The notes under the pieces: generated by a model | What the model was told of the DNA's origin: nothing | What the model saw: only the letters and a program-made list of their open reading frames with translations | Database searches by the model: none | Source of the DNA: Candidatus Saccharimonas sp. | GTDB lineage: Bacteria; Patescibacteriota; Saccharimonadia; Saccharimonadales; Saccharimonadaceae | DNA: 64,000 bases | Direction of reading: 5' to 3' | Assembly: GCA_039809225.1 (NCBI GenBank) | Contig: JBDHUN010000001.1 | Location: forward strand, 22,003-86,002 | Shown: positions 53,311-57,731 of the stretch, piece after piece | Layout: every line of letters begins with the position of its first letter | Position numbering within the stretch: the stretch's first letter is position 1 | Program-made: the position numbers and the translations under genes

Positions 53311-53880
53311 ATGAAGGTTACTACATACCTCGTATTGCTCCGTGGCATTAATGTTGGTGGCAAGAATAACGTACCGATGACGGTGTTAAAAGATTGTCTC
53401 GAAAAGATTGGATTCTCAAACGTAACGACATATATTGCTAGCGGTAACGTTATGCTAGATTCTGATGCATCGCCAGATGAGGTGAAGGATGCAATTGAAA
53501 AAGCACTGCCTGAAACGTTTCAGCTCGATAGCGAATTGATAAAAGTATTAGTGTTATCACGTAGACAACTCAAGAAAATTGTCGACAATAAGCCAAAAGG
53601 ATTCGGTGATCAGCCTGCGCTTTATCATAGCGACGCAATTTTTCTGATGGATGTTGTTGCTGCCGACGTTATGCCTATTTTTCGCCCGCGCGAAGGTGTC
53701 GATACGGTATGGCAAGGTGATGGAGTGGTATACTCGCAGCGTCTGAGCGCCAAGCGCAGCAAAAGTCGTCTTAGTATTATCGCCAGCACGCCATTTTATA
53801 AATCCATGACCATTCGCAGCTGGAATACGGTAGTGAAATTATTGGAGATAATGACCGATCTTGGTAGCAAAGGTAAATGA
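53311..53880 (+). CDS. DUF1697 domain protein
   Basis: YLVLLRGINVGGKNNVPMTVLKDCLEKIGFSNVTTYIASGNV is the canonical DUF1697 N-terminus. Confidence 0.8.
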   Translation: MKVTTYLVLLRGINVGGKNNVPMTVLKDCLEKIGFSNVTTYIASGNVMLDSDASPDEVKDAIEKALPETFQLDSELIKVLVLSRRQLKKIVDNKPKGFGDQPALYHSDAIFLMDVVAADVMPIFRPREGVDTVWQGDGVVYSQRLSAKRSKSRLSIIASTPFYKSMTIRSWNTVVKLLEIMTDLGSKGK

Positions 53881-53904
53881 ATGACTGATTTGAACGACCA
53901 AACT

Positions 53905-53929
53905 AAAAAGACACAAACTGTGTCTTTTT
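53905..53929 (+). terminator. Rho-independent terminator after the DUF1697 gene
   Basis: AAAAAGACACA-AAC-TGTGTCTTTTT hairpin. Confidence 0.7.
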
Positions 53930-53931
53930 AG

Positions 53932-54042
53932 TTTGGTGGACTTTAACGCGCAAGTCCGAACCTATTTTGAAGAAAGATGCTGATAAAAAACTTAGGTGCG
54001 TTGCGCCCCTGAGTTTTACTAAGAAAAAGGAATAATCGGTTT
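53932..54042. repeat. IR-A left arm (111 bp, perfect inverted repeat of 54817-54927)
   Basis: Reverse complement checked base by base against 54817-54927: 111/111 identical. Confidence 0.95.
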
Positions 54043-54154
54043 ACTAATATCAAAATTATGGAATTTTGACGATCTATTATTTACTTAAACCAGTATCGTA
54101 CAGCCACCGACAGAGATGGTAACGATGCCAAGGAAGTTATTTTTCTAAAATATA

Positions 54155-54183
54155 TTGACAAGTCAACAAACTTATGCTAATAT
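54155..54183 (+). promoter_or_regulatory. Near-consensus sigma-70 promoter with overlapping palindromes
   Basis: TTGACA (54155-54160), 17 nt, TAATAT (54178-54183). Palindrome TTGACAAGTCAA covers the -35. The perfect 16-bp palindrome TACACAAGTTTGTGTA (54191-54206) sits at about +1. Confidence 0.55.
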
Positions 54184-54321
54184 TAGATTATACACAAGTT
54201 TGTGTATGGACATTAAATAAATATCTCGGTCGGTTAAGTAAAGTTTGACTAGATTTTGTAAACTCTACTTATCCGGCTGAGATACAGGATCAAGGCCAAC
54301 GCTCTAGCAAAGGAGACTTCC

Positions 54322-54720
54322 ATGAGCGTACAGCACTACCGCCCCACCCAGACCGGTCGTCAGAGCGACAAGAAGCTGGTGGATGACATCGCGCGAGCGA
54401 TCATCCGCAATCACAATGTCGTGGCCGACCAGGTGGGCAACAACAACGGCTGGCAGGGCGATGTCGAGCAGCTTTGCCTGAAGAAGGCACTGTTGCTCAA
54501 CGGCCAGACCCTCGGTCGTGTCGTCATGGCCTTCCCGGAGGCCGACCTGTACGGAGTGCACTGCGGCACCTGGCTCGGCAAGTACGAGTCGGGGCCGTAT
54601 CTCCTCCAGCAGGTTGCGGCGACAGCTATCCTGTGGCGCATCCGGGTCATCCTCGGTGTCTGTGAGGACATCGCCGATGGCGACGACCGCCACATGGACC
54701 GCCTCCCGTGGGCGTCCTGA
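54322..54720 (+). CDS. Hypothetical 132-aa protein, compositionally foreign (high GC, strong GC3 bias)
   Basis: SD aaaggag 6 nt upstream of the ATG. Third codon positions are almost all G/C in this frame only. Several overlapping ORFs on both strands here are a high-GC artefact. No recognisable domain. Confidence 0.6.
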   Translation: MSVQHYRPTQTGRQSDKKLVDDIARAIIRNHNVVADQVGNNNGWQGDVEQLCLKKALLLNGQTLGRVVMAFPEADLYGVHCGTWLGKYESGPYLLQQVAATAILWRIRVILGVCEDIADGDDRHMDRLPWAS

Positions 54721-54816
54721 CCTTGTCCGTCCCCCAGTGTCCGCGCGAGAGCGTGGGCACTGGGGCCTACCCCAAAGGCATAAATGATTTAATGTTTTTG
54801 GGGTAGGTCTAACTTA

Positions 54817-54927
54817 AAACCGATTATTCCTTTTTCTTAGTAAAACTCAGGGGCGCAACGCACCTAAGTTTTTTATCAGCATCTTTCTTCAAAATAGGTT
54901 CGGACTTGCGCGTTAAAGTCCACCAAA
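54817..54927. repeat. IR-A right arm (111 bp)
   Basis: Perfect reverse complement of 53932-54042. Ends with hairpin GGACTT-N8-AAGTCC followed by ACCA. Confidence 0.95.
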
Positions 54928-54995
54928 AAGCGATTTTTCGGGAAATTGTCGCCCTTTCGGGCGATTTTTTCTTTGGCCGCGCAGAGCGCGAACCA
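54921..54995. repeat. IR-B left arm (75 bp, 74/75 identical to the reverse complement of 56726-56800)
   Basis: CACCAAAAAGCGAT(T/A)TTTCGGGAAATTGTCGCCCTTTCGGGCGATTTTTTCTTTGGCCGCGCAGAGCGCGAACCA. Includes a + oriented terminator hairpin (54948-54970). Similarity drops to about 65% beyond 54995. Confidence 0.9.
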
Positions 54996-55206
54996 AGGGT
55001 TTTTCAGGGAGGGAATGGAAAATTGCCACGCCGTTCGACGTGGTTTTTGTTCTTTGGTCGGCGAAAGCCGACAACTGCATTTTGTGATATTATTGAAGTG
55101 GACACAATCTAACTCGGGATAACTTTTTGTTTGGCTTTAATAGCCGTCTCGTGCAATTTGGTTATTCCGGATTGTGTCCAGCGAGGCGGCTATTTAAGTT
55201 GAGGGG

Positions 55207-56654
55207 GTGTGTATGCAACAGCCAGATCAAAAATTCACTTACTTTCTCTATGTCCGTAAATCTACCGACGTAGAGGACAAACAGGTTTTGTCCATTGAAG
55301 CGCAGATCGTGGAACTCAAAGAATTCGCACGGCGTTTGGAACTGCAAGTCGCCGGCATTTTTATAGAAAAGCAGACGGCGAAAAAGCCTGGTCGCCCTGT
55401 GTTTAATGAAATGCTACGCCGTATATCTGCCAGTAATGCTAACGGCATACTAGCATGGCTACCGGACAGGCTTTCTCGCAATTCAATAGATAGCGGGCAG
55501 ATAATCTATATGCTGGACGAAAATGTGCTAGGCGACTTGAAATTCCCGCATTTTTGGTTTGAAAACACGCCACAAGGCAAATACATGCTTGCCCACGAGT
55601 TTAACTCCTCAAAACAGTATGTAGACAATCTGTCAGTCAATACCAAGCGTGGTTTACGACAAAAAGTCCGCGCGGGTCATATTATCCAAGTATTGTGCCA
55701 TTTGGCTATTGCAACGATGTGCGGACAAAGACGGTGGCTAAAAACAAGAAAACCGCGCCGCTGGTGCGCCAATGTTTTGAGCTCTACGCCAAAGGCGACA
55801 AAACGTGTGGCGACATCGCGGACTTTTTGTTTACTAACAACGTGGCGACCAAAGGTCGCCGAAAAACCAAAAATGACCCGAAATCTGCGGGCGGTAAACG
55901 CTGGCACGAAACACGGGTCAAAAATATGCTTTCCAATATCTTTTACTACGGGCATTTTCTGTACGCTGGCGAAGTGCATGAGGGCAAACATCCACCAATA
56001 GTGGACAAAGCATTATTTGACCGCGTTCAAGTGGTTTTGGCTAGTCGCGGACGCGCCCAGAAACAAGCCACCACCCCACAACCACTCACAATGCTGGTGC
56101 GTTGCGCCAACTGTAATTGCTATGTTACTGGCTCGCACAAAGTTAAAAGCCAGAGAAATGGCAATGTGCACGAGTACACCTATTACCGATGTACGCACAA
56201 AAGTAAGACGGTGGCTTGTTCCGAACCAGAACTGCGCGAATATGCTCTTGCCAGCCAACTTGTGCCAATCGCGCGGTCATTTGCTATGCCGCAATATATG
56301 GGCGCGTTTATGCTCGCCAAACTAGACGAGGACGCACAAGTTGTCCAAGCCGACAACACCAAACTAATTGCCACGCACCGCGCCCGACTGGACGAACTGG
56401 CTGGCAAGAGTAAGCGGCTTTTTGATATTTACCTAGACGGCGACATTGACCAAAGCGATTACCAAGACCGCCGCGCCGAATTGATGAGCCGCAAAAAGTC
56501 GCTAGAGGAAAAAATAGAGCATGTCGCTGCTCGCGCTGACTTTTGGATTGAACCTATGCGCGAGTGGGTCAAAACAGCAATTTCACTCTGTGAAATTGAC
56601 GAAAAACCCCACACCAAGCCTTGCGCGAGAGTTTACGCAAAATTGACGGATTGA
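55207..56654 (+). pseudogene. Large serine recombinase, split by a -1 frameshift near 55678
   Basis: ORF1 carries the resolvase catalytic domain (YVRKSTDVEDKQVLSIEAQ, LAWLPDRLSRN). ORF2 (from 55695, frame -1) carries PFGY, the recombinase domain (W..RVKNMLSNIFYYG), a Zn-ribbon (CANCNC..YYRCTHK) and a coiled coil. Confidence 0.8.
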
Positions 56655-56725
56655 ACCTGCTGCTGAAAAACAAAAAAGTCGTTGCAAGCAACGACCAATT
56701 TCCCATCTCCCCCCAAGAAAACATC

Positions 56726-56800
56726 TGGTTCGCGCTCTGCGCGGCCAAAGAAAAAATCGCCCGAAAGGGCGACAATTTCCCGAAATATCGCTTTTTGGTG
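56726..56800. repeat. IR-B right arm (native 3' flank of tRNA-Leu(GAG))
   Basis: Reverse complement of 54921-54995 with one mismatch. Overlaps the tRNA CCA end (56796-56800). Confidence 0.9.
56751..56773 (-). terminator. Rho-independent terminator of tRNA-Leu(GAG), with a second one at 56672-56695
   Basis: Minus strand: TCGCCC-TTTC-GGGCGA then TTTTTT. Further downstream GTCGTTGC-TT-GCAACGAC then TTTTTT. Confidence 0.65.
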
Positions 56801-56883
56801 CACTGAAGAGGACTTGAACCTCCACGGCCGCAATGGCCACCAGCCCCTCAAGCTGACGCGTCTACCAATTCCGCCACCAGTGC
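56796..56883 (-). tRNA. tRNA-Leu (anticodon GAG)
   Basis: Hand-folded cloverleaf. Acceptor GCACTGG/TCAGTGC, D-arm GCG-GAATTGGTAGA-CGC, anticodon stem TCAGC/GCTGG with loop TTGAGGG. Long variable arm, T-arm GGAGG-TTCAAGT-CCTCT, encoded ACCA end. Confidence 0.9.
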
Positions 56884-56946
56884 GTGGTGTAAGGTGTGCA
56901 ATGAGCTATTGAAGTTTATTGTCATTCTCGGACGTTTATTACTCAC

Positions 56947-57006
56947 GGGCGGAATTGGTAGACGCTTTACGTCTACAATTATTTGCGTTTCACGCAGCCG
57001 CCACCA
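56947..57006 (+). other. tRNA-Leu-derived fragment / tRNA-like three-way structure ending in ACCA
   Basis: 18 nt GGCGGAATTGGTAGACGC (56947-56964) are identical to the Leu tRNA D-arm region. They form an 18-bp inverted repeat with 56858-56875. Foldable as stem GGCGG/CCGCC + 2 hairpins + ACCA. Not a full cloverleaf. Confidence 0.3.
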
Positions 57007-57083
57007 CAAAGTAGTGATCTTGTAATACAAATAAAAATTATACATGGTGAAAGGCAACTTTGTAAAGATGCAGCGCTAGTGAT

Positions 57084-57275
57084 CTAAAGGAATAGTTGGA
57101 TATGTGCAAGGATCATGATAAATGCAAGCAAACAAAAATAGAGATGCTGCATAATCCAGAATTTTTTAAATCTACGAATAATTGCAGTGATGAGTAGCAT
57201 AATAAACAGTCCCCAAATGAGCACTAGGCTGATGAGGCCAAATCTTGCTTCGTAGGCAATAACGGTTGCGTACAT
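57084..57275 (-). CDS. Hypothetical small membrane protein
   Basis: 63 aa, two hydrophobic helices. Confidence 0.4.
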   Translation of the reverse strand: MYATVIAYEARFGLISLVLIWGLFIMLLITAIIRRFKKFWIMQHLYFCLLAFIMILAHIQLFL

Positions 57276-57324
57276 AATATAAACAAGCGGCCATCAGCCA
57301 GGCAGTAATTGTGTGCGCATTAAC

Positions 57325-57639
57325 CTAGACTGTTACCACAGAGTTCTTCTTAGTAAGCGTTATCGCTTCAAACATATCAAACATACCACCAAAGACGAGC
57401 AGTACACCAGCAACGTACTGTTTACTGGGTAACAAAACCAGCAGTGAAAATACGATAAGTATGCCGGCGGCTATGATGTGAACGATTCGATGAGTGAGAA
57501 GGTCGTAAGGGCTCGATGCCGCGTGGTGGCTAATAGTATGAGGTCGATTTGTATCAGTACTGCGCCACAGCAGTACTGAATGCCAGATGTTGGCAGCTAC
57601 CAGGGCAAGTATCGATAAAAAAGAAATGATAGATATCAT
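57325..57639 (-). CDS. Hypothetical membrane protein
   Basis: 104 aa, three hydrophobic helices. Confidence 0.5.
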   Translation of the reverse strand: MISIISFLSILALVAANIWHSVLLWRSTDTNRPHTISHHAASSPYDLLTHRIVHIIAAGILIVFSLLVLLPSKQYVAGVLLVFGGMFDMFEAITLTKKNSVVTV

Positions 57640-57731
57640 ATGCCATACTATTCACTATATCAAATAAGGAATAAGTTATATTAATGCACCCATGTCATTC
57701 AAAGAGTCTATTTGTTATAATACTATCTGAT

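What the first reader, a model, noticed from the sequence alone, without database searches (positions are those of the whole stretch)
53932..56883. 2.9-kb island integrated at the 3' end of tRNA-Leu(GAG), bounded by a 10/11 direct repeat of the acceptor end
TTTGGTGgACT (53932-53942) and TTTGGTGcACT (56794-56804) are co-oriented at the two edges. The second is the complement of the tRNA acceptor/CCA end, AGTGCACCAAA.

Everything between them is non-housekeeping: the IR cassette and a large serine recombinase. The left edge starts 2 nt after the DUF1697 terminator. This is the classical footprint of site-specific integration into a tRNA 3' end.

The enzyme is unexpected, because tRNA-end targeting is established mainly for tyrosine integrases rather than large serine recombinases. 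The element is also unusually small. A third, inverted copy of the motif (AGTCCACCAAA, 54917-54927) sits exactly at the junction of the two IR systems.
Basis: partly seen in the sequence, partly recalled or inferred. Interest (0 to 1): 0.65.

Follow-up and report, generated by a model that had tools for sequence, protein, structure and literature searches.

The report
Serine-recombinase island at tRNA end
This is a small, now disabled mobile island sitting at the end of a tRNA gene in a Saccharibacteria genome; it belongs to a large and apparently undescribed family whose serine recombinase targets the ends of many different tRNA genes and whose two halves (cargo and recombinase) are each framed by long inverted repeats.

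Summary
TTTGGTGSACT occurs three times in 64 kb (0.05 expected), at the coordinates given. The right copy is the 3' end of tRNA-Leu(GAG).

The three copies are the outer tips of two abutting inverted-repeat systems. IR1 (111 nt, 100%) frames a one-gene cargo. IR2 (109 nt, 89%) frames a large serine recombinase (LSR) gene.

The same layout recurs in about 90 related loci (LSR 40-90% identical). In 55 of 64 informative loci the gene abuts the 3' end of a tRNA, across 18 tRNA species. A conserved T-loop-like box lies 4 bp further from the crossover than in the tRNA, which matches attP/attB geometry.

Evidence of mobility:
- one unit 99.9% identical in different flanks;
- an empty site for a relative's island;
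- a distant syntenic genome without any island.

In this species the LSR carries a fixed 2-nt frameshift. Public runs still show the cargo segment flipped, the recombinase segment flipped, and the cargo deleted at the core.

Verdict: a real, decayed member of a new variant of LSR integrative element. The role of the internal inverted attP-like site is unexplained.

The parts
53897..53937 (.). Native bidirectional terminator hairpin (19-nt arms ACCAAACTAAAAAGACACA / TGTGTCTTTTTAGTTTGGT). It is the original downstream flank of tRNA-Leu, now the left chromosomal flank (x'/d'). It contains the pseudo-site (AC at 53902-53903) used in the cargo-less variant.
   Evidence: I3. The empty site in L007 has the same kind of hairpin starting in the ACCA end. 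Deletion joint 53901->54922.
53932..53942 (+). Site S1 core (attL-like): TTTGGTG shared crossover region, plus GACT, the first bases of the 'a' arm.
53932..54042 (+). IR1 left arm ('a' arm), 111 nt. It carries the inverted T-loop-like box (TCCGAACC) and a terminator-like hairpin.
   Evidence: The arm's contig has twice the depth of its neighbours in run X1.
54155..54183 (+). Promoter-like site of the cargo gene (TTGACA, 17 nt, TG-TAATAT).
   Evidence: The block 54140-54772 is conserved at 85-87% nt with other ORF132 cassettes.
54322..54720 (+). Cargo gene ORF132: a small all-helical protein of unknown function, GC 64% in a 49% GC window.
54732..54807 (+). Two hairpins behind ORF132 (54732-54765 and 54766-54807), probable terminators of the cargo.
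   Evidence: I14, I7.
54817..54927 (-). IR1 right arm (a'), ending in the inverted core AGTCCACCAAA.
54917..55025 (+). IR2 left arm ('b' arm). Together with a' it forms the internal attP-like site S2 (a'|core'|b). It contains an intrinsic terminator (54948-54965) and, on the minus strand, a copy of the recombinase C-terminal tail.
55213..56806 (+). Large serine recombinase gene, disrupted. Catalytic domain 55213-55680. A 2-nt insertion (AT, about 55681-55682) shifts the frame. The A-run 56602-56606 is 1 nt shorter than in runs X1 and X2. The tail runs through the b' arm, and the stop codon TGA 56804-56806 lies inside the tRNA.
56696..56804 (-). IR2 right arm (b'). It supplies the terminator behind the tRNA (56773-56756 on the minus strand) and encodes the recombinase tail.
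56794..56804 (+). Site S3 core (attR-like): TTTGGTG plus CACT of the tRNA acceptor stem.
56796..56883 (-). tRNA-Leu(GAG), the target gene, intact.

Best explanation
Window 53932-56804 (2,873 nt) is an integrated and now immobilised copy of a family of small integrative elements of Saccharibacteria/Patescibacteria. These elements are moved by a divergent large serine recombinase (LSR).

Proposed mechanism:
1. The LSR recombines an element site, attP = b'|TGGTG|a, with attB, the 3' end of a tRNA gene (x'|TGGTG|t).
2. The crossover lies in the discriminator/CCA nucleotides, probably the dinucleotide GT (AC on the tRNA strand).
3. The tRNA half of attB is read through the universal T-loop box (GGTTCRA) and the CCA end. 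The element's 'a' arm carries the same box 4 bp further out, as expected of an attP half-site.
4. Integration gives S1 (x'|a, attL) and S3 (b'|t, attR). The b' arm restores a terminator behind the tRNA and holds the 3' end of the recombinase gene.

Every copy also keeps an inverted attP-like site, S2 (a'|b), between cargo and recombinase. The element is therefore two segments, each framed by 100-180-nt inverted repeats. Each segment can flip, and cargo can be lost or differ between copies.

In this species the recombinase carries a fixed +2 frameshift. The flips still seen are therefore most likely made by homologous recombination between the arms, or by a paralogue in trans.

Shown: the anatomy, its recurrence, the tRNA association, the orientation isomers, the cargo-less variant, an empty site for a relative, and the frameshift.

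Inferred: the crossover position, the reading of the T-loop box by the zinc-ribbon domain, who catalyses the flips, and the purpose of S2.
For: Anatomy.

LSR domains. There are 3,614 homologues, and the intact ones are 530-570 aa.

The same two-repeat layout next to tRNA-Leu is seen in L025-L032 and in metagenome loci L033-L112.

Family statistics:
- 55 of 64 loci have a convergent tRNA at the gene's 3' end, 5 more at its 5' end, across 18 tRNA species.
- IR2: n=52, median 105.5 nt, 27 perfect.
- IR1: n=21, median 180 nt, 11 perfect.
- Cargo is 755-6,275 nt.
- An a' arm precedes IR2 in every locus examined.

The GGTTCRA box lies 24 nt from the CCA end in the tRNAs and 28 nt in the a' arms. Compare the 5-bp shift of the zinc-ribbon motif between attB and attP (PMC3783163).

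Mobility:
- L055 and L057 share a 6,361-nt unit at 99.89%, bounded exactly by the outer repeat ends, in different flanks.
- An X10 contig joins the 23-nt left flank of the L033 island directly to a tRNA-Leu(GAG) 3' end.
- L007 is syntenic (holin-like gene, solute-binding protein, tRNA-Leu) without an island.

Isomers:
- L079 against L080/L084/L086, and L067/L068 against L070, at 99.3% identity or more.
- In this species: cargo flipped in X10, recombinase flipped in X3 and X7.
- Cargo deleted with a 2-nt junction inside the core, in X5 and L114.

Cargo of relatives is accessory or defence-like: ThsB_TIR, methylase + RAMA, M78 + DUF4411, reverse transcriptase, NUDIX, HAD.
Against: - No empty site and no unambiguous circular junction was found for this island in its own species. 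The X7 contig that joins 56793 to 53932 is equally explained by the doubly flipped isomer.
- The recombinase here is frameshifted in every sample seen. Nothing in this window can be attributed to its current activity.
- The one informative SNP in the IR2 arms (54935 T / 56786 A) stays with the outer flank in both orientations. This places the flip crossover inside the arm, not at the core.
- A canonical LSR needs neither S2 nor 100-180-nt arms, so that part is unexplained.
- The left half of attB is not conserved.
- All comparative evidence comes from metagenome contigs, some at 2-5x depth.
- The shift of the box is 4 bp, not 5.
Confidence: 0.75

Rival explanations
1. Programmed double inversion switch. 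The recombinase's main job is to flip the two segments between the three sites, which would be phase variation of cargo or recombinase expression. The tRNA association would be secondary.
For: Both orientations of the recombinase segment and of the cargo segment exist in nature. The repeats are long and mostly perfect. The three sites alternate in orientation.
Against: - Both b arms are identical, and each carries a terminator between the outside and the gene. Flipping therefore changes no promoter-gene or gene-gene junction.
- The cargo has its own promoter and terminators.
- Flips persist where the recombinase is frameshifted, and the arm SNP does not travel with the segment.
- Under the known rules for LSRs, attP x attR or attP x attL pairs are not recombined (PMC3783163, abstract).
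- This rival does not explain 18 target tRNAs or the same unit in different flanks.
Confidence: 0.15
2. Ordinary one-step island. A circle with one attP entered the tRNA. The inverted repeats are later, incidental duplications kept alike by gene conversion.
For: The direct repeat at both ends matches the tRNA 3' end. Homologous recombination does seem to act on the arms.
Against: S2 (a'|core'|b) is present in every locus examined, across 40-90% recombinase identity and 18 tRNA targets. It was inherited as part of the element and was not acquired locally.
Confidence: 0.07
3. Not mobile. The block is a conserved chromosomal feature of the tRNA-Leu locus, and the 11-mer is a chance or structural repeat.
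For: The relative L025/L026 has the recombinase at the same tRNA-Leu(GAG) in the same synteny.
Against: - 3 matches against 0.05 expected.
- The cargo differs between the window and L025.
- L007 has the same synteny without an island.
- The cargo-less variant exists.
- An identical unit sits in other flanks.
- An empty site exists for L033.
- 18 target tRNAs are used.
Confidence: 0.03

Closest known systems
Large serine integrases of temperate phages (A118/LI, SPbeta SprA, Bxb1, phiC31)
   Same: Same domain order: Resolvase, Recombinase, zinc ribbon. Weak but significant sequence matches to SprA and A118 integrase (E about 1e-8). One conserved motif sits further out in the element half-site than in the host half-site, as in attP against attB.
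   Different: At most 27% identical to any phage or plasmid LSR, and absent from IMG/VR. The target is a tRNA 3' end rather than a protein gene. The element is 3-9 kb with no phage genes and no candidate directionality factor. An intact inverted attP-like site stays inside the integrated element.
tRNA-gene islands of tyrosine integrases (Islander definition)
   Same: The island abuts an intact tRNA gene whose 3' end is supplied by the element. A short copy of that end marks the far side. The cargo is accessory or defence genes.
   Different: The enzyme is a serine recombinase, which Islander states is not known for tRNA targets. The repeated tRNA piece is only 5-11 nt. The recombinase gene points into the tRNA and overlaps it.
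Tycheposons of Prochlorococcus
   Same: Small cargo-carrying elements at tRNA genes. A minority (27 of 937) carry an LSR.
   Different: A different phylum. No report there of paired long inverted repeats or of an internal attP. Relatedness of the LSRs was not tested here.
LSR transposons and cassettes (Tn4451 TnpX, Tn5397 TndX, SCCmec CcrAB)
   Same: Small elements moved by an LSR without phage functions (from general knowledge, not tested here).
   Different: Those use other targets and have short imperfect end repeats. No two-segment layout is known to me.
Serine invertase switches (Hin, Gin, Cin, Pin) and the yeast 2-micron plasmid
   Same: A segment between inverted repeats exists in both orientations. 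If excised, the element would be a circle cut into two unique parts by a pair of inverted repeats, like the 2-micron circle.
   Different: Invertases are small serine recombinases with 26-bp sites and a Fis enhancer. The 2-micron plasmid uses a tyrosine recombinase and replicates. Here the flips change no junction of function, and they persist with a broken recombinase gene.

Membership tests
Large serine recombinase (LSR) family | N-terminal resolvase catalytic domain with the serine nucleophile | tested here: met
   PF00239 E=6e-15 on residues 11-156. The motif YVRKSTD is invariant in the family alignment (R17 K18 S19).
Large serine recombinase (LSR) family | Recombinase domain followed by a zinc-ribbon domain with cysteine ligands | tested here: met
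   PF07508 E=8.6e-15 and PF13408 E=3.5e-6. Invariant C299, C302, C328, C337.
Large serine recombinase (LSR) family | One uninterrupted reading frame (a working enzyme) | tested here: not met
   The window has GGTCAT[AT]TATCCA against GGTCATTATCCA in intact relatives. The same frameshift is in X1, X2, X3, X5, X10 and L114. A second 1-nt shift at 56602-56606 is seen only in the window.
Large serine recombinase (LSR) family | Coiled-coil motif inserted in the zinc-ribbon domain | not tested
   The region 370-440 looks helical by eye. No structure was predicted for the LSR.
Canonical LSR integrative element (attP x attB gives attL + attR) | The two ends share only the short crossover region, and the hybrid sites combine host and element half-sites | tested here: met
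   S1 = x'|a and S3 = b'|t share TTTGGTG here, and only TGGTG in L046, L049 and L056.
Canonical LSR integrative element (attP x attB gives attL + attR) | Empty attB in relatives, or an excised circle | tested here: inconclusive
   An empty site was found for the related L033 island, and in the distant syntenic L007. None was found for this island. The X7 junction 56793->53932 is ambiguous.
Canonical LSR integrative element (attP x attB gives attL + attR) | Same binding motif about 5 bp further from the centre in attP than in attB half-sites | tested here: met
   The GGTTCRA box lies at 28 nt in a' arms against 24 nt in tRNAs in nearly all loci, a 4-bp shift. The rule is taken from PMC3783163. 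That the zinc ribbon reads this box is an inference.
Canonical LSR integrative element (attP x attB gives attL + attR) | No attP remains after integration | tested here: not met
   S2 = a'|core'|b, the reverse complement of b'|a, is present in every integrated copy.
tRNA-gene genomic island (Islander signature) | Intact tRNA gene at one end and a displaced tRNA fragment as a direct repeat at the other | tested here: met
   tRNA-Leu(GAG) at 56796-56883. A 10/11 repeat of its last 9 nt plus 2. The fragment is much shorter than is usual.
tRNA-gene genomic island (Islander signature) | Tyrosine-family integrase on board | tested here: not met
   The only recombinase is of the serine family. No other ORF of 50 aa or more in the island has such a domain.
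Serine invertase switch (Hin/Gin type) | Small (about 190 aa) serine recombinase acting on about 26-bp inverted sites that flank a promoter or alternative gene ends | tested here: not met
   The enzyme is about 530 aa with LSR domains. The arms are 100-180 nt. The junctions are identical in both orientations.

The most novel reading that the evidence does not exclude
A natural 'flip-and-swap' integration platform. An LSR clade uses the universal T-loop box and CCA end of tRNA genes as its attB, so it can colonise almost any tRNA. It keeps a spare, inverted attP inside each integrated copy.

Pairs of inverted sites would then allow cassette exchange between elements, as in recombinase-mediated cassette exchange. 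They would also allow capture of further tRNA sites without a directionality factor. This would explain three observations:
- different cargo behind near-identical recombinase modules;
- solo cassettes at tRNA ends (L115);
- flanks that are re-associated between tRNA loci (L055/L056; L041 against X7).
Probability: 0.3. Interest if true: 0.85.

Novelty: new variant of a known kind. Interest (0 to 1): 0.72.

Why it matters
- Serine integrases are the main tools for inserting large DNA, and their natural targets are almost always unique protein-coding sites. A clade that reads conserved tRNA features (T-loop box plus CCA end) would be a new kind of target recognition. It would come with ready-made natural att-site series across 18 tRNAs.
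- For the biology of Saccharibacteria and other Patescibacteria, which have tiny genomes and few known mobile elements, this family looks like a main vehicle for accessory and defence genes.
- The constant internal attP-like site and the perfect long repeats pose a concrete mechanistic question that simple plasmid assays could answer.

Tried and rejected
- Chance repeat: rejected.
- Known RNA element in the cargo leader or arms: only sub-threshold Rfam hits.
- Function of ORF132: no Pfam family, only 16 homologues, and no fold match to the PDB with an AF2 model of pLDDT 75.
- Exact-protein look-ups gave nothing useful. ORF132 is not on record. The 104-aa right-hand neighbour gave one 956-nt contig.
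- Phage origin: no relatives in IMG/VR with one protein or with a profile. Phage and plasmid LSRs are at most 27% identical.
- Second LSR in the window that could act in trans: none.
- Transcription: the one RNA run shows only a contig over 53821-53994 and conserved recombinase words.
- Dyad symmetry between the b' and a half-sites: none seen by eye.
- Literature: seven full-text searches found no description of this family.
- The X7 'goes back 2862' contig was first read as a circle junction. It was then recognised as equally the S2 site of the doubly flipped isomer.
Full report
**1. What is in the window**

ARAGORN finds tRNA-Leu(GAG) at 56796-56883 on the minus strand. Rfam agrees at 47 bits.

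The pattern TTTGGTGSACT matches three times:
- 53932-53942 (+);
- 54917-54927 (-);
- 56794-56804 (+).

Dinucleotide-preserving shuffles give 0.05 matches on average.

The repeat finder shows that these 11-mers are the tips of two abutting inverted-repeat systems:
- IR1 = 53932-54042 / 54817-54927, 111 nt, 100% complementary;
- IR2 = 54917-55025 / 56696-56804, 109 nt, 89% complementary. Its outer 79 nt carry only two mismatches.

IR1 frames a 774-nt cargo segment. It holds a good promoter-like site (54155-54183), a 132-codon ORF (54322-54720) and two hairpins. The ORF has 59-66% GC in a window of about 49%.

IR2 frames a gene with Resolvase, Recombinase and Zn_ribbon_recom domains. This is a large serine recombinase (LSR). 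Its reading frame continues through the right arm and stops at TGA 56804-56806, inside the tRNA.

In run X1, which holds 95% of the region's words, the IR1 arm has twice the depth of its neighbours. This is as expected for two copies per genome.

**2. The recombinase gene is broken here**

The gene reads in three frames. Against intact relatives the window has GGTCAT[AT]TATCCA where they have GGTCATTATCCA. This 2-nt insertion sits between the catalytic and recombinase domains.

The same sequence is in contigs of runs X1, X2, X3, X5 and X10 and in L114. The frameshift is therefore real and fixed in this species.

The second shift is an A-run at 56602-56606 that is one base shorter. It is absent from X1 and X2, so it is private to this assembly or an error.

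**3. The layout is a family trait**

A read-through version of the protein finds 3,614 homologues. The intact ones are 530-570 aa, and those that carry names are from Saccharibacteria or Patescibacteria.

The closest contexts show the same layout:
- In L025 (CP064995.1, a complete 1.01-Mb genome syntenic with the window) a 182-nt perfect IR1 frames NUDIX + HAD genes.
- A 105-nt perfect IR2 frames the recombinase.
- The right arm ends 9 nt inside tRNA-Leu(GAG).
- L027-L032 show the same next to tRNA-Leu(CAG).

A metagenome scan added 80 loci with 40-70% identical enzymes. Statistics over all 88 loci:
- 64 have sequence beyond the gene's 3' end, and 55 of these have a convergent tRNA abutting it.
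- 5 more have the tRNA 3' end at the gene's 5' side.
- 18 tRNA species are used: Leu x4, Gly x3, Glu x2, Thr x2, Lys x2, Arg, Val, Cys, Gln, Phe, Ser.
- IR2 was found in 52 loci, median 105.5 nt, 27 perfect.
- IR1 was found in 21 loci, median 180 nt, 11 perfect.
- Cargo is 755-6,275 nt.
- An a'-type arm precedes IR2 in every locus examined, also where the far IR1 arm lies beyond the contig.

Cargo genes are accessory or defence-like: ThsB-type TIR, N6/N4 methylase with RAMA, M78 peptidase + DUF4411, a reverse transcriptase, UDG, NUDIX, HAD, inositol phosphatase and ABC transporters.

**4. Site algebra**

Write the core as TGGTG (TTTGGTG in the window). Left-type arms are x' (chromosome) and b' (element). 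Right-type arms are t (tRNA) and a (element). Then:
- S1 = x'|a;
- the reverse complement of S2 = b'|a;
- S3 = b'|t.

This is what attB (x'|t) x attP (b'|a) would give, plus one extra inverted attP.

The left flank x' in the window is a 19-bp-stem hairpin that begins with ACCAAA. The native terminator behind tRNA-Leu(GAG) in the island-free relative L007 has the same form. So S1 carries the original downstream flank of the tRNA.

In loci such as L046, L049 and L056 the three sites share only TGGTG. This confines the crossover to those five bases.

**5. How the target may be read**

The tRNA halves share only universal features: GGTTCRA of the T-loop, and the discriminator plus CCA.

All a' arms carry AAAATAGGTTCGAGC-like sequence. 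The box starts 28 nt from the end of CCA in the a' arms and 24 nt in the tRNAs, in nearly all loci.

For LI/A118 integrase the zinc-ribbon motif lies at bp 16-24 of attP half-sites. It is shifted 5 bp towards the centre in attB (PMC3783163).

The 4-bp shift seen here fits that geometry. It suggests, as an inference, that the zinc-ribbon domain reads the T-loop box. That would explain how one enzyme clade has spread over 18 tRNAs.

The b arm is conserved as well. It holds a terminator that replaces the displaced native one, and it encodes a conserved C-terminal tail of the enzyme, W-x-A-L-R-A...E-K...G-D...L-V.

**6. Mobility**

- L055 and L057 share 6,361 nt at 99.89%. The shared stretch starts at the outer end of IR1 and ends at the outer end of IR2. 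Their flanks are unrelated on the right and about 90% alike, at a different distance, on the left.
- A contig of run X10 reads TTGTATTGTCTGGAACGTCTTCA followed by 81 nt of a tRNA-Leu(GAG) 3' end. Those 23 nt are identical to the left flank of the L033 island. This is the predicted empty attB.
- L007 has holin-like gene, solute-binding protein, then tRNA-Leu(GAG), with no island. L008 has DUF1697 directly before tRNA-Cys.
- Runs X2, X4 and X7 hold further unoccupied tRNA-Leu(GAG) ends.

**7. Rearrangements**

Between metagenome contigs that are at least 99.9% identical (L079 against L080/L084/L086), the tRNA flank is attached to opposite IR2 arms. The same holds for L067/L068 against L070, at 99.3-99.9%. 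So the recombinase segment exists in both orientations.

In the window's own species:
- An X10 contig joins the DUF1697 flank through the 'a' arm to the right end of the cargo, so the cargo is flipped.
- In X3 and X7 the only contig over the recombinase 3' side runs through b' into 'a', so the recombinase is flipped.
- In X7 that contig continues into the left end of the cargo. It is therefore either the doubly flipped isomer or an excised circle, which are indistinguishable.
- X5 (and X6, whose read laying figures are the same as X5's throughout) and L114 lack 1,020 nt (53902-54921), which covers the cargo, IR1 and the native terminator. The junction has a 2-nt overlap (AC) that falls inside the S2 core, consistent with a GT/AC crossover.

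**8. Who makes the flips**

The IR2 arms differ at position 19 (54935 T, 56786 A).
- In the flipped contigs of X3 and X7, the distal sequence is that of the right arm. Position 19 is still T next to 'a'.
- The exchange therefore lay inside the 60-nt identical block and not at the core.
- Together with the fixed frameshift, this favours homologous recombination between the arms in this species.
- It rests on one SNP and a few low-depth contigs.
- For the family at large, the catalyst of the flips is open.

**9. What remains unexplained**

A canonical LSR element needs no internal attP and no 100-180-nt arms. Yet S2 is universal and the arms are mostly perfect. Observations that may bear on this:
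- Cargo differs behind similar recombinase modules (window against L025 and L114; L056 against L057).
- A solo ORF132 cassette with its own 105-nt repeats abuts tRNA-Gly(CCC) without a recombinase (L115).
- L055 and L056 share the S1 flank but not the S3 flank.

These fit exchange of segments between pairs of inverted sites, or capture of other tRNA sites by the internal attP. Neither is shown.

**10. Comparison with the known**

- The enzyme is an LSR by domains. It is remote from studied ones: SPbeta SprA E=1.7e-8 and A118 integrase E=3.5e-8. It is at most 27% identical to phage and plasmid LSRs and absent from IMG/VR.
- In tycheposons 27 of 937 elements carry an LSR.
- Seven literature searches found no account of this family.

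I file it as a new variant of a known kind: an LSR integrative element with a new target class and a new two-segment layout. The copy in this window is a decayed member.

Noticed in passing
window 53311-53880: The DUF1697 gene starts 10 nt after the solute-binding protein gene. Its best relatives (at most 67% identical) are spread over Actinomycetota, Chloroflexota and Saccharibacteria. It is absent from this position in the syntenic L007 and L025, and it sits directly before tRNA-Cys in L008. It looks like an earlier horizontal acquisition at the same hot spot.
   Followed up: partly
window 56948-56976: An 18-nt copy of the tRNA-Leu D-arm region (GGCGGAATTGGTAGACGC) lies on the plus strand, inverted relative to tRNA-Leu(GAG). 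It overlaps a terminator-like hairpin (56958-56976). It may be a relic of a rearrangement at this tRNA.
   Followed up: partly
window 56884-57730: Contigs in X3 and X4 join 56883 directly to 57730/57731. Other strains therefore seem to have tRNA-Leu(GAG) next to tRNA-Cys without the 850 nt that hold two small membrane ORFs. L025 has only 232 nt there.
   Followed up: no
window 54322-54720; L115, L116, L118: The ORF132 family always has 61-66% GC inside 45-52% GC genomes. Only 16 homologues were found, and no fold match. L118 holds three paralogues in a row. Runs X7, X8 and X9 carry an in-frame CGA insertion behind 54425.
   Followed up: partly
L114 1-598: In the cargo-less contig L114 (about 2x coverage), a GC-rich Amidase_2 gene is joined inside the solute-binding protein gene at window 53192. 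This is either an assembly chimera or a real rearrangement.
   Followed up: no
L063 10077-11942: A second cassette framed by 104-nt perfect a-like repeats lies beyond tRNA-Leu(TAA)/tRNA-Cys, on the far side from the recombinase. One locus can therefore hold several cassettes.
   Followed up: no
run X10, contig of 711 nt over window 56651-56803: The recombinase 3' side and b' arm continue after TTTGGTGCAC into CTATACGACCTATCGTGGAACC..., a different a-like arm. Another cassette is therefore attached to the same recombinase module in that sample.
   Followed up: no
window 56696-56806; L025 7493-7629: The last 35 or so codons of the recombinase are encoded in the b' arm, on the strand opposite the tRNA's terminator. 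The stop codon lies inside the tRNA gene, with a 41-nt overlap in L025. The enzyme's C-terminus therefore depends on the site it sits in.
   Followed up: partly
L041 against run X7: The left flank of the L041 island reappears in X7 with 2 mismatches, directly joined to a tRNA-Leu(GAG) end. The L041 island itself ends at tRNA-Leu(TAG). This hints at exchange between two tRNA-Leu loci.
   Followed up: no
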